Shown here one piece after another: positions 27,558 to 42,222 of a DNA stretch of 64,000 nucleotides; the stretch's first letter is position 1; each line of letters opens with the position of its first letter. Origin of the DNA: Escherichia phage RB16; the sequence record NC_014467.1; one strand, given 5' to 3'. The translations under genes and the position numbers were made by a program. The notes beneath the pieces were generated by a model. That model had not been told where the DNA came from. It worked only from the letters and a program-made list of their open reading frames with translations, and ran no database searches.

Positions 27558-27567
27558 GATATAGTTC

Positions 27568-28049: not shown

Positions 28050-28096
28050 TTCTATGGGTGTAAGATAACATCATCCCACACCCAGCGCAAGCGATT

Positions 28097-28688: not shown

Positions 28689-28742
28689 GATATCCTCCTT
28701 CGTTTCGATGTGTGTACAATAACAGATCAGGGTTATCGAGTT

Positions 28743-28916: not shown

Positions 28917-28926
28917 GTTATTCCCC

Positions 28927-29205
28927 TTATGCCATTTTCTTAGCGATTTTCCACGCGGCTTTGAACTCAGGAACATCTTCAATCTCAACCCAGAAACCAG
29001 ATCCGAAACCATCGTTGTAGCAAGGACAACCGTCGCAGTAGTTTTCCCAGGTCATCACTTCACCACCAACAGAAGCACCAGTTTCCATCGCACGTAATGC
29101 ATCTTCAACCTTTTCCAGTTTTTCGGCGTTGTCGTCGTAAATGATGAAATACCATTTGCCGTTGTATTCGTTACCCAGTTTGATTGCTTCGCGAACAAGT
29201 TTCAT
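28927..29205 (-). CDS. hypothetical Cys-containing protein (92 aa)
   Basis: CDGCPCYNDG motif; start set at MKLVREAIK. Confidence 0.4.
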   Translation of the reverse strand: MKLVREAIKLGNEYNGKWYFIIYDDNAEKLEKVEDALRAMETGASVGGEVMTWENYCDGCPCYNDGFGSGFWVEIEDVPEFKAAWKIAKKMA

Positions 29206-29243
29206 GATGATTTCCTTTTTGTCTGTTTCGTTTCGATGTGTGT

Positions 29244-29272
29244 AATATAACAAAACCACTCACCATAGGCAA
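29244..29272 (-). promoter_or_regulatory. promoter cassette (-35 TTGCCT, 17-nt spacer, -10 TATATT) plus conserved leader
   Basis: minus strand TTGCCTATGGTGAGTGGTTTTGT TATATT ACACACATCGAAACGAAAC. Confidence 0.45.
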
Positions 29273-29298
29273 GGGGTTTCTTTAACAAAAAGTGCTAT

Positions 29299-29901
29299 TT
29301 AATAGTATCCCGGATCTTTGAAGTGTGCTTTCACATATCGCAGAATTTCATGAAGCATCTGAGTTTGCTCATGTCCACGTTGTGAAGCCATATCGATCAT
29401 GACGCGAGTCATTTCGACGTTCTCCAGGCTCGCTATACGCTGTTTTAAGGCTTCGTTTTCCTTTTCCAACTCAACCATACGGTTGTATGCGTTGACTCGC
29501 TCCAGAGGCATATCAGGGCGCTCTTTGAGGACACGGGCGCGGGAAACTTCACATTCATGGTTTGCTTTCCAGTGATCACGTTCACCAGCAAGTTTATCGT
29601 TCTCCTGATGTAGACGCACAATCTCTTTAAGGAGGCGTTCAGTGGTATCAGGATCAAACGAAACCATATACTGCATCAACGATTCCAGCCACATATTCTC
29701 TTGAACTGACTGCACCGCTTTAGGCCCGATAATGGTAAACGCGCGTTTCTTCATGTTGCTACCGCAACCGTAGTTAACGTTACCCGTAATCGAACCTGGT
29801 TGATTCGTACCATCCCACTTGTCACCGATAACAGGTTTTACTTGCTGAATAGCACGATTCAGCATTTCGAATTCTTCATCTAAAATCATTTCATATCCCA
29901 T
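29299..29901 (-). CDS. hypothetical coiled-coil protein (200 aa)
   Basis: long heptad-rich stretch ...LKEIVRLHQENDKLAGERDHWKANHE...LEKENEALKQRIASLE. Confidence 0.45.
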   Translation of the reverse strand: MGYEMILDEEFEMLNRAIQQVKPVIGDKWDGTNQPGSITGNVNYGCGSNMKKRAFTIIGPKAVQSVQENMWLESLMQYMVSFDPDTTERLLKEIVRLHQENDKLAGERDHWKANHECEVSRARVLKERPDMPLERVNAYNRMVELEKENEALKQRIASLENVEMTRVMIDMASQRGHEQTQMLHEILRYVKAHFKDPGYY

Positions 29902-30290
29902 AATTCATATTGTGAGCGAAGGATAGCGTAAAGGCTACCGATATGGATTGTGTCTACCGGACACTGGAAAAGATCCCCGCGCATCATGTTAAACTCGATA
30001 TCGTTACGTTCAACATAGTTACCGATCATTGATGTCCAACCCATCACCAGGTTGTAACCATCTTCTGATAACCCATAAGCCAGCCTAACCATGATACAAC
30101 GCTTATCAGCCAGTTCTACGCGCATATGGGTACTGGTATGAGTGACCTTGTTCGGGAATCTGCGAAACATTTTAGTAAGGAGTTTGGCGGTTTCAATATT
30201 GAACGCCAGTTCTTGATCCTTACTGGTCTGGTTATCATGACGACGATCCAGATATTTCTTCATTTTCGGATTCAGATTCACATGTTGCAT
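29886..30290 (-). CDS. hypothetical protein (134 aa)
   Basis: ORF track. Confidence 0.45.
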   Translation of the reverse strand: MQHVNLNPKMKKYLDRRHDNQTSKDQELAFNIETAKLLTKMFRRFPNKVTHTSTHMRVELADKRCIMVRLAYGLSEDGYNLVMGWTSMIGNYVERNDIEFNMMRGDLFQCPVDTIHIGSLYAILRSQYELWDMK

Positions 30291-30472
30291 AATATATCCC
30301 TCACAGGTTTATAACGTTCTTTTCCAGTGCCGTTGCATGAACTGCATTTTGGCGATCCGTAGTTATCATATCGCCCAGACCCATTACATGCAACACATTT
30401 CCGTAATTTACAGCCATACACGAACCGATTATTACATGCGGTTCGTGCTGCCTTGCGCTCATGGAAGTTCAT
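30278..30472 (-). CDS. small zinc-finger protein (CxxCxGxG repeats)
   Basis: CVACNGSG and CSSCNGTG repeats; ATGA overlap with next gene. Confidence 0.4.
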   Translation of the reverse strand: MNFHERKAARTACNNRFVYGCKLRKCVACNGSGRYDNYGSPKCSSCNGTGKERYKPVRDILCNM

Positions 30473-30672
30473 ACTTTGTTGTACACCTGAACAACCCACA
30501 TTTCGATATTTGGTGAGTAAGTAACGTTCACCATCGGCATAGTGCGGTATTTGTAAGCGGCTTTGTACGCGTCAAGTTCAGTCGGAACACAGAAAGAGAA
30601 ACCGTCGTCATAACGTTCTGCGTTAGAAACTTCACAACCAACTACAGCAGCAATATTTTTGTTCATGTTCAT
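30469..30672 (-). CDS. hypothetical protein (67 aa)
   Basis: ORF track; preceded by promoter cassette. Confidence 0.45.
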   Translation of the reverse strand: MNMNKNIAAVVGCEVSNAERYDDGFSFCVPTELDAYKAAYKYRTMPMVNVTYSPNIEMWVVQVYNKV

Positions 30673-30708
30673 GATGTTTTCCTTTCTGTGTTTCGTTTCG
30701 ATGTGTGT

Positions 30709-30745
30709 AATATAACAAAGCCCTTACAGTAATACAAGGGCTTTT
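30709..30745 (-). promoter_or_regulatory. terminator-hairpin/promoter cassette (-35 TTGTAT, 17-nt spacer, -10 TATATT)
   Basis: minus strand AAAAAGCCCTTGTATTACTGTAAGGGCTTTG TTATATT ACACACATCGAAACGAAAC. Confidence 0.5.
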
Positions 30746-30750
30746 TCAAT

Positions 30751-31059
30751 TTATTCGAATTTTTTTGGCAACTGGTCTACAAGTGTTTGAGTTTGATGAA
30801 GTTCTTCACTCAATTTATCACGATATTGAACCAGTTCGCGGGTTCGTGATGCGGAATAGCTAATGATTTTATCCGCGTTAGCCATGTAACCGTAACCAGC
30901 ACACGCGATTTCCAGTTTTGCGTTATCGCCGTTAGGTACGCGGATATGAGCATACGCCAGCAAGTTTTTAACCGCTTGTAACAGTTCATGATCTTCTTTA
31001 CCGATGATAAACTGGTTTGGTTCTACTGAATCAACATTCAGTTCTTCGTCTTTGTTCAT
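30751..31059 (-). CDS. hypothetical protein (102 aa)
   Basis: ORF track. Confidence 0.45.
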   Translation of the reverse strand: MNKDEELNVDSVEPNQFIIGKEDHELLQAVKNLLAYAHIRVPNGDNAKLEIACAGYGYMANADKIISYSASRTRELVQYRDKLSEELHQTQTLVDQLPKKFE

Positions 31060-31589
31060 TTTGCAGCCTTATACATTTCAATTACGCGTTTCATGTGCTC
31101 TTGTGATTGAGGCACACCAGCGAAATTCAATTTAATGAAGAATTCAAGACGATCCTTTTTATTACATTCATCCAACCCCAGGGCAGGTAATGACAGGTTT
31201 TCAAAGGCGCGTTGTTCGTGTCGCTGCATATCGTCCCAGAACAGACGGGAACCATCCGACATAGGAATCCCTATCTCACCTTCATAAACTTTGATAATCG
31301 TCGTCAGGCGTTGCTTGCCGTCGATTACTTCGACCCAGTGAGATTCGTTAAACTCGCTATCAACAGCGATCGCGATAATACCGCAAGGGAAACCCGTGAT
31401 CAACGTGGTCAGGAATTCATCTTGTTCTTTCTGCGTCCACACATAGGGGCGCTGATATGATGGATTCAGATCCAGATCCTTATTTTTCCACCAGTGGATA
31501 TAACTTCCAACCATGATCGCATGTTCACGACTTCTGAAAGTTATCCGTTCACGAATTCGGTTACGGGCTGGGATATCATCTTTAGACAT
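31056..31589 (-). CDS. DUF262 / ParB-like nuclease-domain protein
   Basis: PSYQRPYVW...VIDGKQRLTT matches the YQRxxxW / DGQQR signature of the ParB/Srx-fold DUF262 domain. Confidence 0.5.
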   Translation of the reverse strand: MSKDDIPARNRIRERITFRSREHAIMVGSYIHWWKNKDLDLNPSYQRPYVWTQKEQDEFLTTLITGFPCGIIAIAVDSEFNESHWVEVIDGKQRLTTIIKVYEGEIGIPMSDGSRLFWDDMQRHEQRAFENLSLPALGLDECNKKDRLEFFIKLNFAGVPQSQEHMKRVIEMYKAAK

Positions 31590-31911
31590 TATGGATCACC
31601 CACAGCAATAAACAAGAATTGATAACCGCGAAAGTGGTACAAATTGCAGCAAAAACACGCGCATTATGAACATCAGTTTTCAGTTCTGCGATCTCTTGAT
31701 CCTTTTCGCTTTCGAATTCGTCGCGGGTTCCGTAATAGCCAGGATCAGCAGGGGTAGAGATACGCACCGCATCTTTTTCTACAATAGTCGCATAACCATT
31801 GTTTACATTTGTTGCACCGTACCAATCACCACGGTCATTGTTAATGATCAGGTGTTGCCCCTTTTCATTGTGCTTTGCTTCACCAGTGACAACTACACGT
31901 TTACCGTTCAT
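31582..31911 (-). CDS. hypothetical protein with C-terminal TM helix (109 aa)
   Basis: C-terminal VFAAICTTFAVINSCLLLWVI. Confidence 0.4.
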   Translation of the reverse strand: MNGKRVVVTGEAKHNEKGQHLIINNDRGDWYGATNVNNGYATIVEKDAVRISTPADPGYYGTRDEFESEKDQEIAELKTDVHNARVFAAICTTFAVINSCLLLWVIHNV

Positions 31912-31914
31912 AAT

Positions 31915-32175
31915 TTATTCCTTCACATGTTGTAACAGGAAGTCTAACAGATTTCCTTCCGCTTGCATAGCATAAACTTTATTAAGTTTTGCGATGTTTT
32001 GAAAATCAGAGGTTTCTGGGTATTCCCAATTACCATCATCAGAAACAATAGCACCCACTGATAAACCAGTTTCGGGGTTGCGAGTCAACGCCAGCCCCAG
32101 CGGGTGCAATATTTCTTTGTTGATTTTCCAGATCAGCCCCATATCGGACAGGGTGTTGAAATCAACAATTTTCAT
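31915..32175 (-). CDS. hypothetical protein (about 86 aa)
   Basis: ORF 31915-32262 trimmed to MKIVDFNT. Confidence 0.4.
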   Translation of the reverse strand: MKIVDFNTLSDMGLIWKINKEILHPLGLALTRNPETGLSVGAIVSDDGNWEYPETSDFQNIAKLNKVYAMQAEGNLLDFLLQHVKE

Positions 32176-32176
32176 G

Positions 32177-32563
32177 TTATGCCTTTGGGACAACACCGAA
32201 TGCCAGAAGACCCATACGATGATCGTTATCTGCCTCTTCACGGAAGAAATAGTATTGTTCATCGGAAATATCGATTACGGTGATACCCTCTTTCAGATAC
32301 GGCAACAGATATAACGGGATCAGCATCAAATCAGATTCACTGCTCCATTTACGGAAACCCAGATTTTCCATTTCTTCCCGCGTCAAATCATTAGGATCTA
32401 CCGGAAAGAAATTAGGCGATTTCATCAGGCGACCAGGAAGGTCACGAATATTGCTGATTGCGAATTCCGTTCCCCATGAAGTGTATTCAATAGGTTCGGC
32501 GGCACGGGTTGCGGTAGCAACGAGAATCATTTGGCACAGTTGAAAAGTATTTGGATTGCTCAT
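32177..32563 (-). CDS. hypothetical protein (128 aa)
   Basis: ORF track. Confidence 0.45.
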   Translation of the reverse strand: MSNPNTFQLCQMILVATATRAAEPIEYTSWGTEFAISNIRDLPGRLMKSPNFFPVDPNDLTREEMENLGFRKWSSESDLMLIPLYLLPYLKEGITVIDISDEQYYFFREEADNDHRMGLLAFGVVPKA

Positions 32564-32973
32564 GATATAGATCCCACAAGTTTAGTCAGAAGGTGTCCCA
32601 TAGTCTTACGCGCATGATCGCGGATCTGGCTATACGGAACATATTTGAAGTCATCCATTTCAGTAATGGTTCGACCGTTTTTAACGAAGGTTGAAGCGCA
32701 AACACATTTTTCTGCTTCGGGGTAATTATTACCCACATATACGAATAACACAAGCTCTTTTTTACTCGTATAATCAATCAGACCCAGGCTCAACAGTTCG
32801 TGTTGTTCAACTACAACGCCCGTTTCCTCGAAGCATTCACGGATAGCAGCATTGATCGGGGATTCGCCTTTTTCGATATGCCCCTTTGGGATGTCCCAAT
32901 GAGGCGTTTCGGTTGCGTGACCCATTAAAACGCTGCCGTTATTCAGAAAGAGAATACCAGCAGACCGTTCCAT
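32560..32973 (-). CDS. nudE: Nudix hydrolase (NudE-like)
   Basis: Nudix box GHIEKGESPINAAIRECFEETGV (Gx5Ex7REUxEExGU). Confidence 0.8.
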   Translation of the reverse strand: MERSAGILFLNNGSVLMGHATETPHWDIPKGHIEKGESPINAAIRECFEETGVVVEQHELLSLGLIDYTSKKELVLFVYVGNNYPEAEKCVCASTFVKNGRTITEMDDFKYVPYSQIRDHARKTMGHLLTKLVGSIS

Positions 32974-33212
32974 TACTGTGCTCCGAACTTGCGATCGTAT
33001 GCTGCCAGCGCTTTATCTGCTGCATCAACAGCCTGTGTGTGCTTGTTGTTTGAACGCTCAGTAAACACTTCGCGGTAAATCGCAGTCCAGAGATTGCGGC
33101 GGGTATGTTCACTTTCTTCGTTGACACGAGAAGCCGCAAAAGCATTATGCTCTTTGATTAGTTGCGCCAGTTGCACATCATGATTGTTTTGTTGAATAGC
33201 TGTAGAAGTCAT
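32973..33212 (-). CDS. hypothetical protein (79 aa)
   Basis: ORF track. Confidence 0.4.
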   Translation of the reverse strand: MTSTAIQQNNHDVQLAQLIKEHNAFAASRVNEESEHTRRNLWTAIYREVFTERSNNKHTQAVDAADKALAAYDRKFGAQ

Positions 33213-33475
33213 AATTCACCTATTTCTTTCAGTTCAGTTTTCAGTTTTTCGAGAGTTGATTGGTACTGAATGCCGTTTTCTGGGTTTGGCAGACGGGCAT
33301 AATACAGCGTACCAGTTTTGTTTATGTCGGACAACACCTCTTGATCGAGGGTAGCCGGATCAATACCGAAAGCCATTTTAAACATGGTTTCCGCGTCTGG
33401 GGCGAATCCGTGAGAGAATGCAAACCCCAGCTTTTTATCAAACTGCATCAGGGATACTTTATTCACTTTTTCCAT
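33209..33475 (-). CDS. hypothetical protein (start uncertain)
   Basis: ORF 33209-33595 trimmed; several candidate starts. Confidence 0.35.
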   Translation of the reverse strand: MEKVNKVSLMQFDKKLGFAFSHGFAPDAETMFKMAFGIDPATLDQEVLSDINKTGTLYYARLPNPENGIQYQSTLEKLKTELKEIGEL

Positions 33476-33761
33476 AATGTTCTTCGTAGTCATCGCATTC
33501 AGGGAGATAAGTTTCGCAGAACATGCACAGCGTGAAGAAAGTAGGCTGGCGAATCCCGATATTATCAGGTAAGTACATCCAGAACGTGTTAGCAAACACG
33601 ATGAACGTTTTCAGGTTTTCAACGGTTACGGTACTGACACCATCATAACCGGATTGAGCAATTGCGCGTTCCAGGGGAACGGGGTATTGTTCGCAGTAAT
33701 CGACGTAATGATCGCTTGTTACAAGCGCATTAGCCGCCTTTACGAGATCGATAATTTTCAT
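33459..33761 (-). CDS. hypothetical protein (100 aa)
   Basis: ORF track. Confidence 0.4.
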   Translation of the reverse strand: MKIIDLVKAANALVTSDHYVDYCEQYPVPLERAIAQSGYDGVSTVTVENLKTFIVFANTFWMYLPDNIGIRQPTFFTLCMFCETYLPECDDYEEHYGKSE

Positions 33762-34096
33762 GCTTTTACATATTCCACTTTAACAGGTTTGGCGATAAGG
33801 TGATCTTTGGTGTAACCTTGTCCGTCGCAAACATCACAAACGATTTTGAAATCTTCCATTTGGTCGACCCATCCAGAATCAGGCAATCCAGAAGGGTACG
33901 TGTTGAAGGTTTTAACACTGTATCCTTTCCCATCACACTTAGGGCATTTATACGGGTATTTCGATTTGATCGCACTATACAATTGACCCAGTGTGGTCGA
34001 ATGATCAAAGTGTATAACAAATGCTTCAATGTCAGCAATACGCAGTTCGTTTGGCTTGATCACAGTAAACACATTTGAAGGTATGTTTGAGCGCAT
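33758..34096 (-). CDS. small zinc-finger protein (CPKCDGKGY ... CDVCDGQGY)
   Basis: two CxxCxGxG motifs; start trimmed to MRSNIPSN. Confidence 0.4.
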   Translation of the reverse strand: MRSNIPSNVFTVIKPNELRIADIEAFVIHFDHSTTLGQLYSAIKSKYPYKCPKCDGKGYSVKTFNTYPSGLPDSGWVDQMEDFKIVCDVCDGQGYTKDHLIAKPVKVEYVKA

Positions 34097-34106
34097 AATA
34101 TATTTC

Positions 34107-34247
34107 TCACTTAAAGAATTTTTTGATGAAAGAGAGGAACAATCCACCACCGAACATGATCCAGTATCCCGCGCCGTCACCGTGAAACAGGACGTAAACC
34201 GCGACACCATAACAAAAGATTTCTGCAATATTCAGTAAGTTTCTCAT
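34107..34247 (-). CDS. possible small membrane protein (46 aa)
   Basis: hand translation MRNLLNIAEIFCYGVAVYVLFHGDGAGYWIMFGGGLFLSFIKKFFK. Confidence 0.25.
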   Translation of the reverse strand: MRNLLNIAEIFCYGVAVYVLFHGDGAGYWIMFGGGLFLSFIKKFFK

Positions 34248-34336
34248 AACTCCCTCCTTTGTCTACACCAGGTATTTTACCAGAAAATAGACTACTGTCA
34301 ACAACAAAGTTTTATCAACCCACTTATCACCAGTCA

Positions 34337-34477
34337 TCAGTAGTCACCCATAGGTTGAGAAGAAGCAACGCTCAATACGCGGAAAGAACATTTGTTCCAT
34401 TCACAATATGCTTTCGCACAGTGAACACTACCTTTCATCACAAACCCGTTTGAGAACACCAACCAGTAAAGTTTCAT
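34337..34477 (-). CDS. small Cys-containing protein (46 aa)
   Basis: MKLYWLVFSNGFVMKGSVHCAKAYCEWNKC...; start follows promoter cassette and SD AGGAGG. Confidence 0.35.
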   Translation of the reverse strand: MKLYWLVFSNGFVMKGSVHCAKAYCEWNKCSFRVLSVASSQPMGDY

Positions 34478-34504
34478 GATTACCTCCTTTGTTTCGACAC
34501 CCCT

Positions 34505-34545
34505 AATATAACAAAAGCCCTTGCACGAATGCAAGGGCTTTTTCA
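34505..34545 (-). promoter_or_regulatory. terminator-hairpin/promoter cassette (-35 TTGCAT in 9-bp stem, 18-nt spacer, -10 TATATT)
   Basis: minus strand AAAAAGCCCTTGCATTCGTGCAAGGGCTTTTGT TATATT. Confidence 0.5.
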
Positions 34546-34712
34546 AATATTTTTCAACATGCGTAGTTGAGGTGGACAATCTGGAGAAGCAATCAAACAA
34601 TCCAGGCGAGACATAACGCGACGGTATCCGTCATACTCAAACTTGATTTTAGGCGGTACGTAGTTCACGTTAATTGCGTTGCGCGTGTTAATGTTCGCTT
34701 CGTACTCAGGGA

Positions 34713-35234
34713 TCACGAACTCTCGCCGCGATGTTCGATGTGCTCCGTGATATCCTCAACAGTCTTATCAAGGTCCAGAGATTCAGCATCTTCCTTGATA
34801 ATAGTCAAATCTACAGGCAGTGTCAACAGTCTTTTCACTCCGCTGATATCTTCGATACGAGAATCATACGCAAGGGTAACATGCGGTTTGTAGTTGTCAA
34901 AATCGTAAGTCGCTCCGGCATCCATCGCATCATTGAAACGGCTATGCAGATAATCAGACTCCAGAACACCGACGATAGTGTTACCGTATTTTGTGTCCCA
35001 CTTCTCTACGTCAACCAGTCGGGCAGGTTCAGAGATACCAGAGGCAGGGAACAAATCAACCGTCTTACGGCTATACACAATCGTTGTATGAAGTTTTTCA
35101 GCAGACACCGGATTCTCTACACCCAGAAGTTTTTGCACTTGTGCAAGCGCTTCACAGGAAGCCTGATCGAACTTCGCACACATATAGATCCCCGAATCAA
35201 CTACGGGTTTCGCAACTTCAATAAAACTTTTCAT
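34713..35234 (-). CDS. acb1: 2H phosphoesterase, Acb1/57B-like (anti-CBASS cyclic-oligonucleotide phosphodiesterase candidate)
   Basis: two HxT motifs (KLHTTIVYS and KPHVTLAYD) about 80 aa apart; sits in the T4 57B position next to 57A-1-3. Confidence 0.65.
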   Translation of the reverse strand: MKSFIEVAKPVVDSGIYMCAKFDQASCEALAQVQKLLGVENPVSAEKLHTTIVYSRKTVDLFPASGISEPARLVDVEKWDTKYGNTIVGVLESDYLHSRFNDAMDAGATYDFDNYKPHVTLAYDSRIEDISGVKRLLTLPVDLTIIKEDAESLDLDKTVEDITEHIEHRGESS

Positions 35235-35252
35235 GTGTACTCCAAATGAAAA

Positions 35253-35268
35253 AGGGGCCGAAGCCCCT
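35253..35268 (-). terminator. intrinsic terminator
   Basis: AGGGGC-TTCG-GCCCCT + TTTTT on minus strand. Confidence 0.5.
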
Positions 35269-35288
35269 AGTGGTTAAACGCCTAAGCG

Positions 35289-35549
35289 TTAAGCATCTTT
35301 TGTTTCTGCGTCATCGGTTTCATCGGCTTCCGGCAGAAGTGCTTTGATAGCACCCAGCAGAGCATCAGGGGTTACACCCTGGGAACCGTCGATTTCCAGC
35401 AGACCGCAAATTTGACCGACGAGTTGGCGATGGCTTTGCAGTTCCTGATCTTTACCCTGAATGATTTCATTCAGATCGAATACACGGGCTTTCAGGATCA
35501 GTACATCGTTTTGCAGTTGCTGGGTTTGGTTTTGGGTTTGTTCAGTCAT
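35289..35549 (-). CDS. 57A: tail fibre assembly chaperone gp57A
   Basis: 86-aa coiled-coil protein with acidic C-terminus, resembling T4 gp57A as I recall it; synteny. Confidence 0.7.
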   Translation of the reverse strand: MTEQTQNQTQQLQNDVLILKARVFDLNEIIQGKDQELQSHRQLVGQICGLLEIDGSQGVTPDALLGAIKALLPEADETDDAETKDA

Positions 35550-35560
35550 TGTTTACACTC

Positions 35561-36220
35561 TTAAAAGTTAAATACATTCAGTACGTTAGTTTTCAATTCA
35601 CCAAGCGTACCATTATTTAGGATGATAATATCAGTGGGTTGCGGTTTCAAGCCTTTCTCAGTTGAATGACTATCATCTTCCCCCGTATCACGTTCGATGA
35701 ATACAAATTTAGTCCCGAACTTGCTCAGGTATTTATATTCATGTTTTTGTCGAACGTCTGTAATGATAAAGTGATCTTTATCGGATTTCAAGATTTTCTT
35801 CAATACAATGTCAGTCCATACAGAATCGTTCTCATTGCAAACGATGTCAGTACCGAAAACCTGCATCAAACGGCGTATTGTCCAGGGATGTTTGTTTGTT
35901 TGGCAAATTTCATACGCGATGATATCAGCATTATTAAGCCAGTACCCGCGTTTAGTCAACGATTCAATGCCATTAGCAAACACCATACGCGCACATTCGT
36001 TAGACATCAACAGGGGTGCTTCCCGATCCCCTGAATAGAATGGGTTTGTTTTAGAGAGTTCTCGCAGATAGCGATTCCCTGATGCAGACATTCCATTTCT
36101 CAGGATACTCTTTATTTCATCAGCAAGCGCGATTGCTTCAACGTTCTGATAGTTATCCAAAACGAATTGAGAAACGGTGTCTTTACCTGTTCTCTTTTTT
36201 CCGCAAATACCATAAATCAT
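35561..36220 (-). CDS. 1: deoxynucleoside monophosphate kinase gp1
   Basis: P-loop GKKRTGKDT at N-terminus; T4 gene 1 synteny. Confidence 0.85.
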   Translation of the reverse strand: MIYGICGKKRTGKDTVSQFVLDNYQNVEAIALADEIKSILRNGMSASGNRYLRELSKTNPFYSGDREAPLLMSNECARMVFANGIESLTKRGYWLNNADIIAYEICQTNKHPWTIRRLMQVFGTDIVCNENDSVWTDIVLKKILKSDKDHFIITDVRQKHEYKYLSKFGTKFVFIERDTGEDDSHSTEKGLKPQPTDIIILNNGTLGELKTNVLNVFNF

Positions 36221-36756
36221 GATTCTTTTTTCCGTGGAGTCGGCACGAGTACCTTTCCGTCTATCTCAATTTCCATATGTGCGAAGTTGAACATAGCCAT
36301 ACAGGAAACGGCTTCATCCGAGTCATTAGTGTACATAAGCTCAAGCTCTCCCAGGTTGGAGGGCCAAGCACCATAAAAGCGAAATGTCGCCACAGTTTTT
36401 GATTGCGAGTTATCCAGGATGTGTAAAGCCATTGCCTGTTGTGGTTCACTCCATCGAATTGAATCGAAGGTGTTAAAATCACAGGTTCCAAGCATCCACA
36501 GGTAAACACCCAGATACGAACGCAATTCTTCATCAACAGCAAAACGGATAGTCAACGGATCGAACTCCATTGCAGATCCAGGGATTTTCCCACGGATCAT
36601 AGGGTTCAATGGTACTTCCGTAATTGGAATGTTGACAGAAGGTAGTGTAACACCCTGAATTTGTAGTTTCAACCCTTTCATATAATCATTATCAGGAATA
36701 TCTAACATAAAGTTAGTTGGTGAAATCTGGTTCAGGATCATAGCAGTAGTGTTCAT
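36217..36756 (-). CDS. 3: tail completion / sheath stabiliser protein gp3
   Basis: 179 aa, position and size match T4 gp3; late-promoter-like box upstream. Confidence 0.7.
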   Translation of the reverse strand: MNTTAMILNQISPTNFMLDIPDNDYMKGLKLQIQGVTLPSVNIPITEVPLNPMIRGKIPGSAMEFDPLTIRFAVDEELRSYLGVYLWMLGTCDFNTFDSIRWSEPQQAMALHILDNSQSKTVATFRFYGAWPSNLGELELMYTNDSDEAVSCMAMFNFAHMEIEIDGKVLVPTPRKKES

Positions 36757-36777
36757 TAATGATCTCCATTTTGTAGA

Positions 36778-36785
36778 TATTTATG
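36778..36785 (-). promoter_or_regulatory. late-promoter-like box CATAAATA
   Basis: minus strand CATAAATA 22 nt upstream of gp3 ATG (T4 late consensus TATAAATA). Confidence 0.4.
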
Positions 36786-36790
36786 TAGAC

Positions 36791-36958
36791 CGTGAGCGAA
36801 GCGAACACACGAACGAAGTGAGTGTTTTTTAACTCAACTACATAATTATATATTTATATTTTATATATAGAGAAAAATGTAGTTTTTGGTATAGTTTTTA
36901 ACCAACTGTAAACTATCCGTCTTCGCTTCGCTTGACGGAACTCGCTTCGCTCGTGATC
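36791..36958. repeat. inverted repeat (GAGCGAAGCGA / TCGCTTCGCTC) flanking an approximately 100-nt AT-rich core
   Basis: 11-bp arms at 36794-36804 and 36941-36951 plus additional CGAAG/CTTCG matches; central A+T tract TATATATTTATATTTTATATATAG. Confidence 0.6.
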
Positions 36959-36970
36959 TTGAAAAACTAT

Positions 36971-36999
36971 TTGACCCTTTCAATAAATAGGTATATCAT
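36971..36999 (+). promoter_or_regulatory. possible early (TTGACC...TATCAT) and late-like (AATAAATA) promoter elements upstream of the CTS-protein gene
   Basis: TTGACC at 36971-36976; AATAAATA at 36982-36989; ATG at 37028. Confidence 0.35.
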
Positions 37000-37027
37000 A
37001 CCTATACTTTCAAAAGAGATTGAAAAC

Positions 37028-37813
37028 ATGAAATCATTCAAAGAACTACTGTCTGAATCTGTTCAGACCAAAAAATTTGCTAAAACTGTTGATCTGGTTG
37101 ACCGTGGTAATGCTTCAAAAGGTCAGATCGGTTTCCTGCACTTTGCACACGGTGCTGATTACGATGTGTATGCGCCGGACTCTCACGATCTCGCCTACTT
37201 CGGTAAAGGTGTTGTTCGCCTGAAAGGTAAAACCACTGGTAAAACTCAGGCTGCATATGTTGACTGGGCGAAAGGTACGGTTTCTTTCTATAGCGGCGAT
37301 CCGGCAGATGACCTGAAATTCGACAAGCCAGCGAAATTCAAAGGCGCTTCCCTGTACAAAGAAGCCGAAGAAAATCTGGATCTGTATAATCAGTTAGCGG
37401 AAGACTTCGAAATTGATGTACCGATGGATGAAGCACTGGTGAAAGGTAAGGTGTACAAGCTCCCAAGCAACGATATGCGCTTGCTGTATACCGGACGTAC
37501 CAAAAACAAGCCTACAGGTGAATACGCTGTGTTTACGGTTGTAGATGCCTCCGGTAAGCCTCGTCTGGTATCGGGTAAACGATTTACCCAGGAATACAAA
37601 GGCGATATGCTGTCTAAACTGGTTCTCGCTGAATCGGAAGATCTGAACGAGGCCGCTAAAGGCATTCGCGAAAAAGTTATTGCGGTGTTGGTGAAGCGCG
37701 GGTTTAACGAAAAAGATGCAGAAAAGATGGTTGATAAAAACCTAAAAGATGCGATGAAAGTTCGCCCTGGTGCAACTCCAGGAAAACTAGCGGAAATCGT
37801 GAGCACCTTGTAA
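37028..37813 (+). CDS. internal head protein-like, with T4-type capsid targeting sequence
   Basis: N-terminus MKSFKELLSE parallels T4 IP CTS MKTYQEFIAE with LxE protease site; Lys-rich 261-aa protein; start reset from ORF-track 36932. Confidence 0.55.
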   Translation: MKSFKELLSESVQTKKFAKTVDLVDRGNASKGQIGFLHFAHGADYDVYAPDSHDLAYFGKGVVRLKGKTTGKTQAAYVDWAKGTVSFYSGDPADDLKFDKPAKFKGASLYKEAEENLDLYNQLAEDFEIDVPMDEALVKGKVYKLPSNDMRLLYTGRTKNKPTGEYAVFTVVDASGKPRLVSGKRFTQEYKGDMLSKLVLAESEDLNEAAKGIREKVIAVLVKRGFNEKDAEKMVDKNLKDAMKVRPGATPGKLAEIVSTL

Positions 37814-37818
37814 AAATA

Positions 37819-37849
37819 AAGCCCCTTCCTTTCGGTTGGGGCTTTTTTT
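37819..37849. terminator. bidirectional intrinsic terminator
   Basis: AGCCCC-TTCCTTTCGGTT-GGGGCT + T7; between convergent genes. Confidence 0.65.
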
Positions 37850-38702
37850 AATATCGGTTCCAAACTTTTTTCGCGCTGTATGGTTTTCCTTTCGACTGGA
37901 AAGCCTGTGTAGGCAACCAAACTGCTTTCGCCCAGTCTTTTGGGGCTATCTCTGCAAGAGGTGATCGCAGGTGCGCAGGTAAGTATGCTTTGATCATTTG
38001 ATCTGCACCGCGCATCCCTTTCACGTTGTTCCAGTTGATTTTCAATCTGGTTTTGTTTGAAAGGCGATCTGTTGATCCGTATCCACGTTTCAAAAGTTCT
38101 TCTAAAAACTCTTGACGGGCTTTAGGTGGCGCATAGTGCAAGTTCAAACCGTACAGAACTAAATTACCCGCTTTAGAACGTCCTGAACCCAGGAAGATGA
38201 TTAGCGGGAACCGATCCCAGTATGGTAGGGTATCTTTGTATTTCGCGTCATACACGAACGTATACAATCGCCCTGTTGCTGGTTTCGCTACCCTGTGCGT
38301 TTTGATGCTGGTTTTGATGAAGTCACCAAACCAATCGGTTGAATCCTTTTGACGTTTCGCAGCAGAAACACCCACTGTAATTTTCCGTAAACTATTTCGG
38401 AAGTCGTTGATGATGTCAACTGTATGTTTTTTGCGATAGTCATTGCGTTTTCGTCGGGCTTCGGTTTCTGCTGTACGTCGCGAGATTTCATCATCAATCT
38501 GCTGTTTATAGCGGTGCATAGACTTTGTGAACGTTGCGTATGCAATCCCGTTTTCGTCCGCGAATTTTTTGGCTGTCATGCCTTTTAATTTTGCGCGTCT
38601 GAATTTAACACCCAGTTCAACCCATTCACCAAGTTTTCGCTTCGGTGGCGGTTTCGGCTTATCTTCTTCTGCGATGATCTCAAACTCAAATATAAAACTC
38701 AT
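37848..38702 (-). CDS. 2: DNA end protector protein gp2
   Basis: 284 aa basic protein in T4 gene 2 position between 3 and 4. Confidence 0.7.
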   Translation of the reverse strand: MSFIFEFEIIAEEDKPKPPPKRKLGEWVELGVKFRRAKLKGMTAKKFADENGIAYATFTKSMHRYKQQIDDEISRRTAETEARRKRNDYRKKHTVDIINDFRNSLRKITVGVSAAKRQKDSTDWFGDFIKTSIKTHRVAKPATGRLYTFVYDAKYKDTLPYWDRFPLIIFLGSGRSKAGNLVLYGLNLHYAPPKARQEFLEELLKRGYGSTDRLSNKTRLKINWNNVKGMRGADQMIKAYLPAHLRSPLAEIAPKDWAKAVWLPTQAFQSKGKPYSAKKVWNRY

Positions 38703-39388
38703 AATTCCCTCCGTTTACACTTATCACCATGCCAACGTTTAAACATACCCGGCCTGAAACTATTACCGCAGTATTGGCATTCCATTTTCTCTATATTTGA
38801 AACTGCTTCCCTTATGCGTATCTTTTGTTCTTCTGTTCGGGGTTTCCCCTTTCTAGCATCTGCTGATTTTTTTACTGCATCAGGGGGCATAGTTTTTCCT
38901 GAACATGAGATAGAAATTTTTTGTTTATGTTCTTCTGATAGAGATCTCCCTACCTTAGCGTTTCTCATCTTTTCTATAGACTGTTCGTTGAATAGCCCTG
39001 GTCGAGTTTTACCTTTCAATGGATTGACCCACCCATCTTTCATTTTGCGAGATTTACCTATTTTTGCTTTACTCATTTTCTCTCGCGTTTCGCTGGATGC
39101 TGTTGTGTATGATACCCCACCCTCCCCACCAATTTTTAAATTGTATGTGTGTTCCGATAGCACGAACTCGCGATTGACAAGTTCCTTTTCTTTATCATAC
39201 ATTTCAGAAGGGGTGTCAAACACATACAATATACTTTTTGTGAAGTTGTGTATGCCATATTTGGTTTGTGCTTTCAATAAAAGTTTACCAGACCCCATAT
39301 ACGAATCATTCACATCTGTGGTTGCATGTGCGCCGATATAAATTTTATCGTTGATATTGTTTTTAATCTGATAGACTAAATATTTCAT
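38699..39388 (-). CDS. GIY-YIG homing endonuclease (Seg-like)
   Basis: MKYLVYQIKNNINDKIYIGAH (GIY...YIG), conserved R/E/N downstream, NUMOD3-like EKMSKAKIGK / EKMRNAKVGR repeats; inserted between genes 2 and 4. Confidence 0.75.
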   Translation of the reverse strand: MKYLVYQIKNNINDKIYIGAHATTDVNDSYMGSGKLLLKAQTKYGIHNFTKSILYVFDTPSEMYDKEKELVNREFVLSEHTYNLKIGGEGGVSYTTASSETREKMSKAKIGKSRKMKDGWVNPLKGKTRPGLFNEQSIEKMRNAKVGRSLSEEHKQKISISCSGKTMPPDAVKKSADARKGKPRTEEQKIRIREAVSNIEKMECQYCGNSFRPGMFKRWHGDKCKRREL

Positions 39389-39858
39389 TTCTCGTACCCT
39401 TTCCATCCAAAAACACGTTTGAGGGTGTCTTCGGTTATGATCTTGAACTCCCATCCTTTTGCTTTACATGCAGCATTGGCGGCTTTCCATTTGTCTATAT
39501 TTATGGAGTAAACATAGAGAGCATCAACAAATTTCTTTTTGTTGTGAACGTTGTTGTTCGCTGGCTTAGGTGGGGGCAATGTTTCTTTCATCGGTTTGAC
39601 TTCCCATAGGTAGGTCACACCGTTATCCATCTCAACATAAAAATCCATGAAGTAACGCCGTCTTTTACCGTCTGCGTTGCTGAAATAAGGTATCACAACC
39701 TCTTCACTGTTCCAGCGTTTCACATGCGGATTCCTGTCAAGCCAGTTCATTATATATTTTTCCCAGCTTGACCGATACGTTATCTTTCGAGGATCGCCTT
39801 TATATTTTGTTATGTTCTGGGGCATAAAAGACCCCTTGTACGTCTGTCTTCCAGCCAT
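39385..39858 (-). CDS. 4: head completion protein gp4
   Basis: 157 aa, T4 gene 4 position. Confidence 0.7.
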   Translation of the reverse strand: MAGRQTYKGSFMPQNITKYKGDPRKITYRSSWEKYIMNWLDRNPHVKRWNSEEVVIPYFSNADGKRRRYFMDFYVEMDNGVTYLWEVKPMKETLPPPKPANNNVHNKKKFVDALYVYSINIDKWKAANAACKAKGWEFKIITEDTLKRVFGWKGYEK

Positions 39859-39902
39859 TATAGATCCTAAATATAGTAAACATTAGATAGGGGAAATTAC
39901 AA

Positions 39903-40457
39903 ATGTTATTCTCGTTCTTTCCACCAGTTGATTACAAAGGCACACCGACTACTGATATTTTTCGGGATTATCGTTTTTACTTTAATCGCGTTATCAGAAA
40001 TTATAAGCCACGTACTTATCAACTGACCGGATCACTAAGACCCGAACAATTAGCTGAAACGCTATACGGAAACCAACAATATTATTGGGTTATCCTGATG
40101 CTCAATGATAACTATGACCCGTTTTACGGATGGATTACAGATCAGGAAACCGCTTATCAATGCGCGGTGCAGCGTTATTCAAAAGTAGGTGGTGAACAGG
40201 TTCTTTATCATATGGATGGGAAAAACAACCGATATTACAATCTGGTTGAAGATCCTAACAACCCTGGTCATTGGTATGACAAAGGTGATAAAGATATGCG
40301 GTATTTGCAATATCAAGGAACATTAGTCCCTATTGATATTTATGAAGATGCAGTGTTGAAAAATGAATCAATGCGAACCATCAAAATTATTAACCCTTCG
40401 GATATTCAATCGTTTGTAAGCGATTATATCAAGGAAATGGAAAAGGCGAATCTATGA
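39903..40457 (+). CDS. 53: baseplate wedge protein gp53
   Basis: MLFSFFPPVDY...NDNYDPFYGWIT...WYDKGDK near-colinear with T4 gp53 as I recall it. Confidence 0.9.
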   Translation: MLFSFFPPVDYKGTPTTDIFRDYRFYFNRVIRNYKPRTYQLTGSLRPEQLAETLYGNQQYYWVILMLNDNYDPFYGWITDQETAYQCAVQRYSKVGGEQVLYHMDGKNNRYYNLVEDPNNPGHWYDKGDKDMRYLQYQGTLVPIDIYEDAVLKNESMRTIKIINPSDIQSFVSDYIKEMEKANL

Positions 40458-42220
40458 AATTCGGTGGAAATATGCATTCCCCTTTCTTTGAGGGGGTGGT
40501 CGAAAACGTTGATGATCCTCGTCTACTGGGGCGTGTTCAGGTGCGTGTATTTGGTGAGCATCCGGCACAGAAACAAAAATCTGAAACTATCGGTATTCCG
40601 GTTGAGGAATTGCCGTGGATGATGCCTATTCAGGATATTCGCAGCGCCGCTATTTCCGGTGTTGGTTTTTCTCCGACTGGTATTACGCGCGGTAGTTTCG
40701 TTATCGGTTACTGGCGCGATAAATGGCACCAGGACGGCGTTATACTGGGAACCTTTGCTGGTGAGTACCGAGAGAAACCGGACACCCAGAAAGGCTTCTG
40801 TGACCCGTTTGGTGAGTATCCTCGTTATGTAGGTAACGATGTCAACGTACTGGCTCGCGGTGGTGCAGAAGGACGCGGTTCTTCAAGCGTGATTATTCGT
40901 GATGCTAACAGTTCGTTAGCTGTCAATCCAGATGATCGCCCACTTGATGAGATTCCAGAAGATAACCGACCTGATACTGGTGGGTTTACGATAGAAAAAA
41001 TGATCCGTGGTGATGAAGGTATTAGATTGACGTGGTATTATGATGTTAAAGGTTATACCATCGGGATCGGACACTTTTTCTTAACCGCACCACAAGGAAC
41101 AGACCCAGCAGTTGTTAACGCGGCGTTATCTAGACAAATTGGCAGAACGGTTACTGGTGTTCCTGGATCAATCACTGCTGATGAAGCGAGTGTTTTATTT
41201 CAGCAGGATTTAGCTAAAGTTCATAACGATATTCAGAATAATAGCAAAGTTCGGGAAGTGTATGTGACGTTAAACCGTCCTCGTCAAATGGCTATTGAAA
41301 ATATGTGCTTCCAAATGGGCGTTGGCGGTGTCGCCAAATTTACTAATGCTCTGGCTGCTATGAAGCGTCAGGACTGGAAAACCGCTTACAACGAACTGCG
41401 AAACTCTACATGGGCTAACCAGACGCCAGGACGTTCTTCACGCGTATCTAAAATCGTGCTGACGGGCAACCTTGAATCATACGGTGTTCAGGTTCCAGAT
41501 CCAGAAGGACGTTCATTGAGTGCTGCTTATAATGCGGTGGTTCTGCAAACAAGCAACCCAGAAGATCCTTTTGTTCCTGGTGATACCCGCGTAATGTTCG
41601 AGGAACCTAAATCGGCATACGCTGCTGAATATCCATACAACATGGTATTCGAATCCCGTTCTGGACACATTCAGGAATTCGACGACACCCCAGGCTTTGA
41701 GCGTTACAACCGCGTTCACCCAGCAGGATCATACGAAGAAATTCGTCCTGATGGAACCCGTGTTGTTAAAATCGTTGGTGATGATTATCTGATTGTTCAA
41801 CAGGGAAGAAAGGTAAACATCAAAGGTAATTTACAAGTAGTGATCGAAGGTGATGCGTTCATTTACAATATGGGTAACGTTCAACAGACTGTCGATGGAA
41901 ACGTAACTGAGTTCGTGCGCGGTAACGTAAACCAGACTGTCGAGGGTGAATATGTTGGGCGTATCAAAGGTAACGCAGAATTAACCGTCGAAAAAGATGC
42001 TACTGTAAACGTGGATCAGAATTTAATGGCTAACGTTAAACAGAATGCAACTGTTAACGTAACCGAAGATGCAACTGTTACCGCAAAAAATGCGATGATG
42101 GATATTGAACAAGACTTCGATTTAAACGCGAACAATATCACAATGGTTGCCCGACAAAATACACTAATCGATTCCGGTTCTCTGACTAAGATTACTGGCG
42201 GGACAGTCCAGGTAGGTTAA
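40454..42220 (+). CDS. 5: baseplate hub / tail-associated lysozyme gp5
   Basis: OB-fold N-terminus, lysozyme domain GYTIGIGHFF, C-terminal beta-helix VxGxxxxxV repeats; high similarity to T4 gp5 as I recall it. Confidence 0.95.
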   Translation: MKFGGNMHSPFFEGVVENVDDPRLLGRVQVRVFGEHPAQKQKSETIGIPVEELPWMMPIQDIRSAAISGVGFSPTGITRGSFVIGYWRDKWHQDGVILGTFAGEYREKPDTQKGFCDPFGEYPRYVGNDVNVLARGGAEGRGSSSVIIRDANSSLAVNPDDRPLDEIPEDNRPDTGGFTIEKMIRGDEGIRLTWYYDVKGYTIGIGHFFLTAPQGTDPAVVNAALSRQIGRTVTGVPGSITADEASVLFQQDLAKVHNDIQNNSKVREVYVTLNRPRQMAIENMCFQMGVGGVAKFTNALAAMKRQDWKTAYNELRNSTWANQTPGRSSRVSKIVLTGNLESYGVQVPDPEGRSLSAAYNAVVLQTSNPEDPFVPGDTRVMFEEPKSAYAAEYPYNMVFESRSGHIQEFDDTPGFERYNRVHPAGSYEEIRPDGTRVVKIVGDDYLIVQQGRKVNIKGNLQVVIEGDAFIYNMGNVQQTVDGNVTEFVRGNVNQTVEGEYVGRIKGNAELTVEKDATVNVDQNLMANVKQNATVNVTEDATVTAKNAMMDIEQDFDLNANNITMVARQNTLIDSGSLTKITGGTVQVG

Positions 42221-42222
42221 TC

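What the first reader, a model, noticed from the sequence alone, without database searches (positions are those of the whole stretch)
34713..35234. Acb1/57B-like 2H phosphoesterase in conserved T4 position
Two HxT motifs (KLHTTIVYS, KPHVTLAYD) with 2H-family spacing, located exactly where T4 carries 57B next to 57A-1-3. T4 57B (Acb1) degrades cyclic oligonucleotide signals of CBASS.
Basis: partly seen in the sequence, partly recalled or inferred. Interest (0 to 1): 0.45.

Follow-up and report, generated by a model that had tools for sequence, protein, structure and literature searches.

The report
Phage Acb1 anti-CBASS nuclease gene
This gene is an ordinary, already catalogued copy of Acb1, the T4-type phage enzyme that destroys the cyclic-nucleotide alarm signals of the bacterial CBASS defence; its one unusual feature is that a 0.48-kb deletion has removed a small tail domain that nearly all its closest relatives carry.

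Summary
Window 34713..35234 (-) is a 173-aa ORF with two HxT motifs (H49-T-T51 and H118-V-T120). The two histidines are 69 residues apart, as in T4.

- The protein matches Pfam Acb1 (PF23474) at E=3e-48, 163.5 bits against a cut-off of 27.
- It is 41% identical to T4 57B/Acb1.
- It matches the FBB1 Acb1 crystal-structure sequence (7T26) at E=4e-25.
- Its AlphaFold model finds 7T27/7T26 as the best solved folds.
- It sits in the T4 gene order gp3, gp1, 57A, 57B.
- The catalytic tetrad, three base-stacking aromatic residues and the adenine-contacting Glu are kept. The lid Trp (T4 W147) is Lys here, as in about 11% of family representatives.

The gene is nucleotide-identical to gp186 of Escherichia phage Lw1 (Pseudotevenvirus), so nothing about it is new.

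In the window and in Lw1, a deletion of about 475-490 bp removed the mini-domain and two-thirds of the downstream gene. What remains is an intact catalytic core and a 57-aa remnant ORF.

Enzyme activity is inferred, not shown.

The parts
34713..35234 (-). acb1 (T4 gene 57B homologue), 173 aa, stop codon included
   Evidence: ORF list. Pfam PF23474 Acb1 at E=3.3e-48, aa 15-158 covering 2-142 of 144 profile positions. 41% identical to T4 57B. Nucleotide-identical to Lw1 gp186.
35082..35090 (-). First catalytic HxT motif (H49-T50-T51, equivalent to T4 H44/T46)
   Evidence: Alignment with T4 and FBB1 Acb1. H and T are invariant in 70/70 family representatives. The catalytic role comes from Hobbs et al. 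2022, PMC9117128.
34875..34883 (-). Second catalytic HxT motif (H118-V119-T120, equivalent to T4 H113/T115)
   Evidence: Alignment. H is present in 70/70 and T in 65/70 representatives.
35240..35243 (-). GGAG ribosome-binding site, 5 nt before the ATG
   Evidence: Read directly from the sequence. Miro annotates a ribosome-binding site at the equivalent place.
35253..35268 (-). GC-rich UUCG-loop hairpin followed by a T-run, between 57A and acb1 (terminator-like or RNA-stabilising)
   Evidence: Terminator scan. The equivalent hairpin is annotated as a terminator in Klebsiella phage Miro.
34717..34724 (-). Deletion junction. The acb1 reading frame leaves the ancestral sequence after ...EHIEHRG and ends in the new residues ESS plus stop.
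   Evidence: DNA alignments with Taquito, Logan contig L008 and CfP1. Between 475 and 487 nt of the relatives are missing. Six nt (GAGTTC) are not matched cleanly by any reference.
34543..34716 (-). 57-aa remnant ORF (GTG start overlapping the acb1 stop), equal to the last third of the 179-aa gene that follows acb1 in relatives
   Evidence: phrog_7718 positions 126-180 of 180. The full-length Taquito protein hits phrog_7718 over 7-180. Translations are compared.
34513..34542 (-). Strong intrinsic-terminator-like hairpin (13 bp stem) that closes the acb1 plus remnant unit
   Evidence: Terminator scan. Annotated as a terminator at the same place in Miro and CfP1.
35289..35549 (-). 57A tail-fibre chaperone homologue (synteny anchor)
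   Evidence: phrog_1002, E=3e-26.
35561..36220 (-). gp1 dNMP kinase (synteny anchor)
   Evidence: PF21448, E=5.1e-49.
36217..36756 (-). gp3 tail-tube terminator / head-proximal tip (synteny anchor)
   Evidence: phrog_45, E=4.6e-41. Lw1 annotates it as gp3.

Best explanation
The ORF encodes a phage Acb1 enzyme, a small metal-independent 2H phosphoesterase. By homology with T4 and FBB1 Acb1, the protein closes around a cyclic di- or trinucleotide made by a host CBASS cyclase (3'3'-cGAMP, cUA, cAA, cAAA, cAAG). Aromatic side chains (here Y17, W79, F112) stack on the bases and a Glu (E151) contacts adenine N6. The two histidines of the HxT/HxT tetrad (H49/T51 and H118/T120) drive attack of the 2'-OH on the 3'-5' bond 3' of adenosine, through a 2',3'-cyclic phosphate intermediate, and give a linear 3'-phosphate product. 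The signal therefore never reaches the CBASS effector, and abortive infection is prevented.

Shown here: family membership, the predicted fold, the residues, the synteny and purifying selection on the core.

Inferred: catalytic activity, substrate range and timing of expression.

This particular allele (identical to Lw1 gp186) has lost, through a deletion of about 0.48 kb, a C-terminal mini-domain of about 35 aa (three strands and a helix) that almost all close relatives carry. I consider it most likely still active, because the whole Acb1 domain is intact and the tested T4-type enzymes have no such mini-domain.
For: - **Family profile:** Pfam Acb1 PF23474, E=3.3e-48, 163.5 bits against a cut-off of 27, covering 2-142 of 144 profile positions.
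- **Solved structure, by sequence:** PDB 7T26 (FBB1 Acb1), E=4e-25.
- **T4 57B:** 41% identity over 143 aa, E=1e-34.
- **Residues:** Y12, H44, T46, W74, F107, H113, T115 and E141 of T4 are all conserved in the window protein. H49, T51 and H118 are invariant in 70 representatives clustered at 50% identity.
- **Predicted fold:** the AF2 model has pLDDT 84.5, with the core (residues 11-150) at 86-98. The Foldseek PDB top hits are 7T27 and 7T26 (E about 1e-13), then the BCSR5 phage phosphodiesterase, then LigT-type 2H enzymes.
- **Synteny:** the order gp3-gp1-57A-57B is the same as in T4 and FBB1.
- **Selection:** dN/dS for codons 1-170 is 0.027/0.489 against Taquito and 0.014/0.352 against L008.
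- **Natural short forms:** forms of 157-177 aa without the mini-domain exist in the same clade: P0003, P0007, P0009 and P0011-P0017.
- **Biochemistry of the family:** Hobbs et al. 2022, PMC9117128.
- **Existing annotation:** a close relative (Citrobacter phage Citrof4) is already annotated 'anti-CBASS protein'.
Against: - No biochemical or genetic test of this protein, or of any Pseudotevenvirus homologue, was found.
- The lid Trp (T4 W147), one of the four stacking aromatic residues in the FBB1 complex, is Lys (K157) here. Only 8 of 70 family representatives share this state, while 43 of 70 have Trp.
- The deletion removed a mini-domain that is confidently predicted to fold (pLDDT 81-91). About 171 phage records carry a closely similar copy of it (at least 60% identical), against about 174 records with a closely related Acb1. 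The remaining tail, residues 159-173, is predicted to be disordered.
- The window and Lw1 are nucleotide-identical across the gene, so selection since the deletion cannot be measured.
- A terminator-like hairpin lies directly upstream and no dedicated promoter was identified, so expression is assumed.
Confidence: 0.85

Rival explanations
1. It is a damaged allele. The deletion that removed the C-terminal mini-domain, in a lineage that also lacks the lid Trp, has inactivated or crippled the enzyme, so the ORF is an Acb1 relic. Loss of acb1 function is known to be selected when hosts carry Panoptes guard systems.
For: - The deletion is seen only in Lw1 and the window among the 55 phage records that match this 251-nt stretch. 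The next-best records match it as two pieces about 475 nt apart.
- The mini-domain is otherwise near-universal among close relatives and is confidently predicted to fold.
- The same event destroyed the downstream gene.
- Natural and laboratory acb1 disruptions that escape Panoptes are documented (PMC13577387).
Against: - The complete Pfam Acb1 domain and every catalytic and core ligand residue are intact.
- The reading frame ends cleanly only 3 codons after the junction.
- Active T4-type Acb1 enzymes have no mini-domain.
- Several clade members naturally end near the same point.
- The Panoptes escapers described carry nonsense or point mutations predicted to deactivate the gene, not tail truncations.
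Confidence: 0.1
2. It is a generic 2H enzyme (a LigT-like 2'-5' RNA ligase or cyclic phosphodiesterase, as the 'RNA ligase' label in Lw1 and PHROG 755 suggests) that acts on RNA ends or tRNA-repair intermediates rather than on immune signals.
For: - The RefSeq and PHROG label is 'RNA ligase'.
- Weak hits to 2_5_RNA_ligase2 (E=0.023) and LigT-type folds at Foldseek E about 1e-4.
Against: - The LigT-type profile scores 15.2 bits against a cut-off of 27, whereas Acb1 scores 163.5 bits.
- The Acb1 structures are better fold matches by about nine orders of magnitude.
- The 'RNA ligase' label predates the 2022 characterisation of T4 57B and is also attached to T4 57B itself.
- T4 57B was shown to be the cGAMP-degrading activity.
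Confidence: 0.03
3. It is an active Acb1 with a shifted substrate range. Because the lid Trp is replaced by Lys and the tail is shortened, it might be more specific (so evading decoy-based guards) or might accept other signals.
For: - The lid differs from the T4/FBB1 type.
- The lid closes over the ligand and W147 stacks on a base in the FBB1 complex.
- The Panoptes paper argues that narrower specificity would be an escape route.
Against: - There is no direct evidence.
- All nine additional homologues tested by Hobbs et al. cleaved both cGAMP and cAAA.
- The adenine-contacting Glu and the other three stacking positions are canonical.
Confidence: 0.15

Closest known systems
T4 gene 57B product, Acb1 (NP_049750.1; Hobbs et al. 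2022, PMC9117128)
   Same: 41% identity over the whole domain. It has the same HxT/HxT tetrad with the same 69-residue spacing and the same Y/W/F stacking residues and Glu. The gene is in the same position after 57A, gp1 and gp3 on the same strand.
   Different: - The window protein has 5 extra N-terminal residues and a 5-residue insertion before the last strand.
- It has Lys instead of the lid Trp W147.
- It has a 16-residue acidic tail that is the stump of a deleted mini-domain.
- In T4 the next gene is ipI. Here it is a remnant of an unrelated 179-aa gene.
Erwinia phage FBB1 Acb1 (PDB 7T26/7T27)
   Same: Best solved-structure match by sequence (E=4e-25) and by predicted fold (Foldseek E=5e-14, TM 0.79 on the target). 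The synteny is the same.
   Different: 37.7% identity by tblastn and 40% in the three-sequence alignment. FBB1 has the W147-type lid and ends at residue 152 with no extension.
Lw1 gp186 and the 207-aa Acb1 of Pseudotevenvirus/Slopekvirus phages (Taquito, CfP1, Miro, leB and others)
   Same: Lw1 gp186 is identical at the nucleotide level. The others are 79-97% identical over residues 1-170, have the same LDLDK lid variant and the same synteny.
   Different: The 207-aa forms continue with the mini-domain RGDKWVxLNxDRTKELGEYDSKxAAEKRLRQIEYFK and are followed by an intact 179-aa gene. The window and Lw1 have lost both.
Burkholderia phage BCSR5 phosphodiesterase (PDB 9q2g/9q2y, deposited as anti-CBASS protein Acb1)
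   Same: A 2H fold with a mobile lid. It is the third-best structural match (E about 1e-9).
   Different: Only about 20% identity. The sequence match is marginal (E=0.15).
LigT / 2'-5' RNA ligase-type 2H phosphoesterases (e.g. E. coli LigT, PDB 5LDI)
   Same: The same superfamily fold and the same two HxT/S motifs.
   Different: Below the Pfam threshold (15.2 bits against 27). Identity is 12-16%. The substrates are different (RNA ends, 2',3'-cyclic phosphates).

Membership tests
Acb1 (Pfam PF23474; Hobbs et al. 2022) | Whole-domain sequence match above the curated family threshold | tested here: met
   163.5 bits against a gathering cut-off of 27, E=3.3e-48, covering profile positions 2-142 of 144.
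Acb1 (Pfam PF23474; Hobbs et al. 2022) | HxT/HxT catalytic tetrad (T4 H44, T46, H113, T115) | tested here: met
   H49, T51, H118 and T120 align to the tetrad. H, T and H are invariant in 70/70 representatives and the second T is present in 65/70.
Acb1 (Pfam PF23474; Hobbs et al. 2022) | Compact 2H phosphoesterase fold | tested here: met
   AF2 model with pLDDT 84.5. The best Foldseek PDB matches are 7T27 and 7T26 at E about 1e-13. This is a prediction, not a solved structure.
Acb1 (Pfam PF23474; Hobbs et al. 2022) | Base-stacking aromatic residues in the pocket (T4 Y12, W74, F107) | tested here: met
   Y17, W79 and F112 are present. Across the family these positions are Y/F, W/F and F/Y/H.
Acb1 (Pfam PF23474; Hobbs et al. 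2022) | Adenine-N6-contacting Glu (T4 E141) | tested here: met
   E151 aligns to it. Glu is present in 54/70 representatives.
Acb1 (Pfam PF23474; Hobbs et al. 2022) | C-terminal lid with a stacking Trp (T4 W147) | tested here: not met
   The position is K157. However, Trp is present in only 43/70 representatives, and Lys in 8/70. It is therefore a feature of the T4/FBB1 subgroup and does not define the family. The lid segment itself (ESLDLDKxxxDIT) is retained.
Acb1 (Pfam PF23474; Hobbs et al. 2022) | Position in T4-like genomes immediately after 57A, gp1 and gp3 | tested here: met
   the window; Lw1; T4; FBB1.
Acb1 (Pfam PF23474; Hobbs et al. 2022) | Metal-independent cleavage of 3'3'-cGAMP, cAAA and other adenine-containing CBASS signals, and rescue of the phage from CBASS | not testable with these tools
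   This needs enzyme assays and phage challenge. No published test of a Pseudotevenvirus homologue was found.
LigT / 2'-5' RNA ligase (Pfam PF13563, PF02834) | Sequence match above the curated family threshold | tested here: not met
   PF13563 scores 15.2 bits against a cut-off of 27 (E=0.023). PF02834 gives no hit for the window protein.

The most novel reading that the evidence does not exclude
The C-terminal mini-domain of about 35 aa (three strands and a helix) that this allele has lost may be a mobile interaction module. It also occurs as a stand-alone 65-aa protein in Ackermannviridae and at the N-terminus of a 470-aa head-associated protein in Shuimuvirus-type siphophages. It could, for example, target its carrier to the prohead or virion, or tether Acb1 to a partner. 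Its loss in the Lw1 lineage would then change when or where Acb1 acts, or would let the phage escape a host system that senses it. None of this is tested here, and the window itself contains only the scar.
Probability: 0.07. Interest if true: 0.5.

Novelty: already known. Interest (0 to 1): 0.15.

Why it matters
Acb1 is one of the main phage counter-measures against cyclic-oligonucleotide immunity (CBASS), and it is also the trigger that Panoptes guard systems detect. Knowing that a phage carries an intact copy therefore helps predict its host range on CBASS-positive and Panoptes-positive strains. For this window the value is correct annotation only. The gene is labelled 'RNA ligase' or 'hypothetical protein' in the Lw1 records and should read 'anti-CBASS nuclease Acb1, C-terminally truncated form'. 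The natural pair of 173-aa and 207-aa alleles offers a ready-made test of what the unexplained C-terminal mini-domain does.

Tried and rejected
- NCBIfam gave no hit for either the 173-aa or the 207-aa form.
- The text and supplements of Hobbs et al. 2022 were searched for Lw1, RB43, Cronobacter and Klebsiella, to see whether a homologue from this clade had been assayed. Nothing was found. The names of the nine tested homologues appear only in figures that are not held.
- Literature searches for Acb1 with BCSR5, and for Acb1 with Pseudotevenvirus, RB43, Lw1 or Slopekvirus, returned no paper that links them.
- The mini-domain was searched against Pfam (only DUF7336, E=0.088), the PDB (only a designed maquette, E=2.9) and PHROGs (phrog_3684, function unknown). 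No function could be assigned.
- Pfam on the neighbouring small ORFs and on the 179-aa gene of relatives gave no hits, so an 'anti-defence island' reading of the neighbourhood could not be supported.
- A clean microhomology at the deletion junction was looked for using three references (Taquito, L008, CfP1). Six nt (GAGTTC) at the junction match none of them cleanly, so the mechanism of the deletion is left open.
- The junction was searched in complete E. coli genomes, to test for a prophage origin. There was no match.
- Selection after the deletion could not be measured, because the window and Lw1 are identical across the gene.
- There is no tRNA cluster anywhere in the window, unlike downstream of T4 57B.

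Full report
**1. The observation**

Window 34713..35234 on the minus strand is a 173-aa ORF. It starts at ATG, a GGAG lies 5 nt upstream, and the coordinates include the stop codon. The two histidines are H49 and H118, 69 residues apart. That is exactly the spacing of H44 and H113 in T4 57B.

The upstream genes on the same strand are:
- a 57A-type tail-fibre chaperone at 35289..35549 (phrog_1002, E=3e-26);
- gp1 dNMP kinase at 35561..36220 (PF21448, E=5e-49);
- gp3 at 36217..36756 (phrog_45, E=5e-41).

T4 itself has the order 3, 1, 57A, 57B on one strand, and so does Erwinia phage FBB1.

**2. What it is**

- **Family profile.** The protein matches the Pfam family Acb1 (PF23474) at E=3.3e-48, 163.5 bits against a curated cut-off of 27, over 2-142 of 144 profile positions.
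- **T4.** It is 41% identical to T4 57B over 143 residues (E=1e-34).
- **Solved structure.** It matches the sequence of the FBB1 Acb1 crystal structure 7T26 at E=4e-25.
- **Predicted fold.** An AlphaFold2 model built on 24 homologues has mean pLDDT 84.5, with the core (residues 11-150) at 86-98. Its best matches among solved structures are 7T27 and 7T26 (Foldseek E about 1e-13). Next come the lid-bearing phosphodiesterase of Burkholderia phage BCSR5, and only then LigT-type 2H enzymes at E about 1e-4.
- **Generic 2H profile.** The 2'-5' RNA ligase profile scores 15 bits, below its threshold. The 'RNA ligase' label attached to this gene in RefSeq and PHROGs (and also on T4 57B itself) is a superfamily-level legacy name.

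**3. Residue-level check against the published mechanism**

Hobbs et al. 2022 (PMC9117128) describe several features of Acb1:
- an HxT/HxT tetrad (H44, T46, H113, T115);
- stacking aromatic residues Y12, W74, F107 and W147;
- a Glu (E141) that contacts adenine N6;
- a C-terminal lid (residues 145-152) that closes on the ligand;
- metal-independent cleavage 3' of adenosine through a cyclic phosphate intermediate.

In the window protein the equivalents are H49, T51, H118, T120, Y17, W79, F112 and E151, all conserved. The exception is the lid Trp, which is K157 here.

I aligned 70 representatives of the family, clustered at 50% identity. They came from a library search that found 1080 representatives at E<=0.001 and 111 at E<=1e-10. 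In that alignment:
- H49, T51 and H118 are invariant;
- T120 is present in 65/70;
- the pocket aromatic residues are always aromatic or nearly so;
- Glu at the E151 column is present in 54/70;
- the lid position is Trp in 43/70 and Lys in 8/70.

The missing Trp is thus a recurrent minority state of the family and does not exclude membership.

**4. Provenance and novelty**

The ORF is nucleotide-identical (0 differences in 522 nt) to gp186 of Escherichia phage Lw1, a Pseudotevenvirus of the RB43 group. The surrounding 6 kb is 95.8% identical to Lw1, with mosaic divergent blocks.

About 1467 phage records encode a detectable homologue. At least one close relative (Citrobacter phage Citrof4) is already annotated 'anti-CBASS protein'.

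The core is under strong purifying selection. dN/dS for codons 1-170 is 0.027/0.489 against Taquito and 0.014/0.352 against a metagenomic relative.

The gene is therefore an already known member of an already known family.

**5.

The closest full-length relatives encode 207-208 aa. These include P0001 at 97% identity (standing for 134 member sequences), Enterobacter phage Taquito, Citrobacter phage CfP1 and Klebsiella phage Miro. After ...DITEHIEHRG they continue with DKWVILNxDRTKELGEYDSKEAAEKRLRQIEYFK... A separate 179-aa gene of unknown function (phrog_7718) and a terminator follow.

DNA alignments show that the window and Lw1 lack 475-487 nt, depending on the reference. The missing stretch spans the last 37 codons of acb1, the short spacer and the first 120 or so codons of the downstream gene.

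The consequences in the window are as follows.
- The acb1 frame runs into three new codons (ESS) and a stop.
- A 57-aa ORF remains at 34543..34716, with a GTG start overlapping the acb1 stop. It corresponds to positions 126-180 of phrog_7718.
- Six nt at the junction (GAGTTC) match none of the three references cleanly, so I could not define a microhomology.

The junction region (251 nt) was searched against the phage collection and matched 55 records. Only Lw1 has it as one contiguous piece. The next-best phages match it in two pieces about 475 nt apart.

About 174 phage records have an Acb1 at least 60% identical to this one. About 171 records carry a closely similar mini-domain, at least 60% identical. 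The truncation is therefore close to unique to the Lw1 lineage.

**6. The lost mini-domain**

In an AF2 model of the 207-aa relative, the extension folds with pLDDT 81-91 into three short strands (165-169, 172-176, 183-187) and a helix (190-206). In the window protein, residues 159-173 are predicted to be disordered (pLDDT 34-40).

The same module occurs elsewhere:
- as a stand-alone 65-aa protein in Ackermannviridae (Cba120 orf223);
- at the extreme N-terminus of a 470-aa protein annotated 'coat protein' (or 'prohead core protein protease' in a related record) in Shuimuvirus-type siphophages (IME207 gp41);
- in one T4-type Acb1 (P0019).

In all, 493 phage records hold it. It has no Pfam, PDB or functional PHROG assignment. 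Its function is unknown, and it is absent from the window.

**7. How the gene most likely works here**

I consider it most likely (about 0.85) that the 173-aa protein is an active Acb1. It would linearise adenine-containing cyclic di- and trinucleotides by two-histidine acid-base catalysis and so silence CBASS effectors. Three points support activity:
- The complete catalytic domain is present.
- The assayed T4-type enzymes have no mini-domain.
- Several members of the same clade naturally end within a few residues of the same point.

Activity, substrate range and expression are all inferred.

On expression, a UUCG-loop hairpin with a T-run sits between 57A and acb1 (35253..35268). The equivalent hairpin is annotated as a terminator in Miro. 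A T4-late-type TATAAATA lies inside gene 1 at 35730..35737. Transcription by read-through is plausible but untested.

**8. Rivals**

- **Crippled relic.** The deletion was sloppy enough to destroy the neighbouring gene, and loss of acb1 function is a documented escape route from Panoptes guard systems (PMC13577387). Against this, the documented escapes are mutations predicted to deactivate the gene, whereas here the catalytic domain is untouched. Confidence is about 0.1.
- **Generic RNA-end 2H enzyme.** This is contradicted by the profile scores and the fold ranking. Confidence is about 0.03.
- **Altered substrate range.** A shift caused by the Lys lid and the shortened tail cannot be excluded and is compatible with the main explanation.

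**9. Verdict**

The finding is ordinary: a known anti-CBASS nuclease gene in its known place, identical to a GenBank entry. The one feature worth a line in an annotation is that it is a C-terminally truncated allele created by a deletion of about 0.48 kb. That same deletion left a 57-aa gene fragment downstream.

Noticed in passing
window 34543..34716 (-), junction at about 34717..34724: The 57-aa ORF directly after acb1 is not an independent small gene. It is the C-terminal third of a 179-aa gene (phrog_7718) that is intact in relatives. A deletion of 475-487 bp, shared only with phage Lw1, fused it to the truncated acb1. It differs from Lw1 by one nucleotide (R40C).
   Followed up: yes
relatives only: L004:3011-3124, L006:1441-1638, L007:2486-2610: The mini-domain of about 35 aa, GDKWVxLxxDxTKxLGxYDSKxxAExRLxxIEYFK, is predicted to form three strands and a helix. 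It is a mobile module. It is found on the C-terminus of Acb1 in Pseudotevenvirus and Slopekvirus, stand-alone in Ackermannviridae (Cba120 orf223), and at the N-terminus of a 470-aa head-associated protein in Shuimuvirus phages. In all, 493 phage records hold it, and no family annotation exists.
   Followed up: partly
PDB 8hds_A residues 484-591; representatives P0078, P0126, P0157, P0159, P0169: Acb1-like domains with both HxT/S motifs also occur inside much larger proteins. One example is the Pam3 phage portal protein (E=4e-4). Several representatives of 700-800 aa show the same. This suggests that some phages carry the nuclease as part of a virion protein.
   Followed up: no
window 34798..34826 (-): A near-consensus sigma-70-type promoter (TTGACA, 17 nt, TATTAT; 11 of 12 matches) lies inside the 3' part of acb1 and points at the downstream small genes. 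It may be a chance match within the coding sequence (codons LLTLPVDLTII).
   Followed up: no
window 37028..37813 (+): A 261-aa gene of unknown function lies on the opposite strand between gp3 and gp2. T4 has only a short intergenic gap at this position. It matches phrog_7322 at E=4e-171 and has no Pfam hit. It is conserved in Lw1 and Taquito.
   Followed up: partly
window about 32585..33775 and beyond about 38574: These are mosaic blocks. The window is identical or nearly identical to Lw1 over acb1 and the tail genes. It diverges sharply (24-95 differences per 200 columns) in the block of small ORFs between nudE and the DnaJ-type zinc-finger gene, and again past 38.6 kb. The window is therefore a recombinant relative of Lw1, not Lw1 itself.
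   Followed up: partly
window 1..64000: ARAGORN finds no tRNA genes anywhere in the window. In T4 a tRNA cluster lies a few genes downstream of 57B, and FBB1 also has tRNA genes downstream of acb1.
   Followed up: yes
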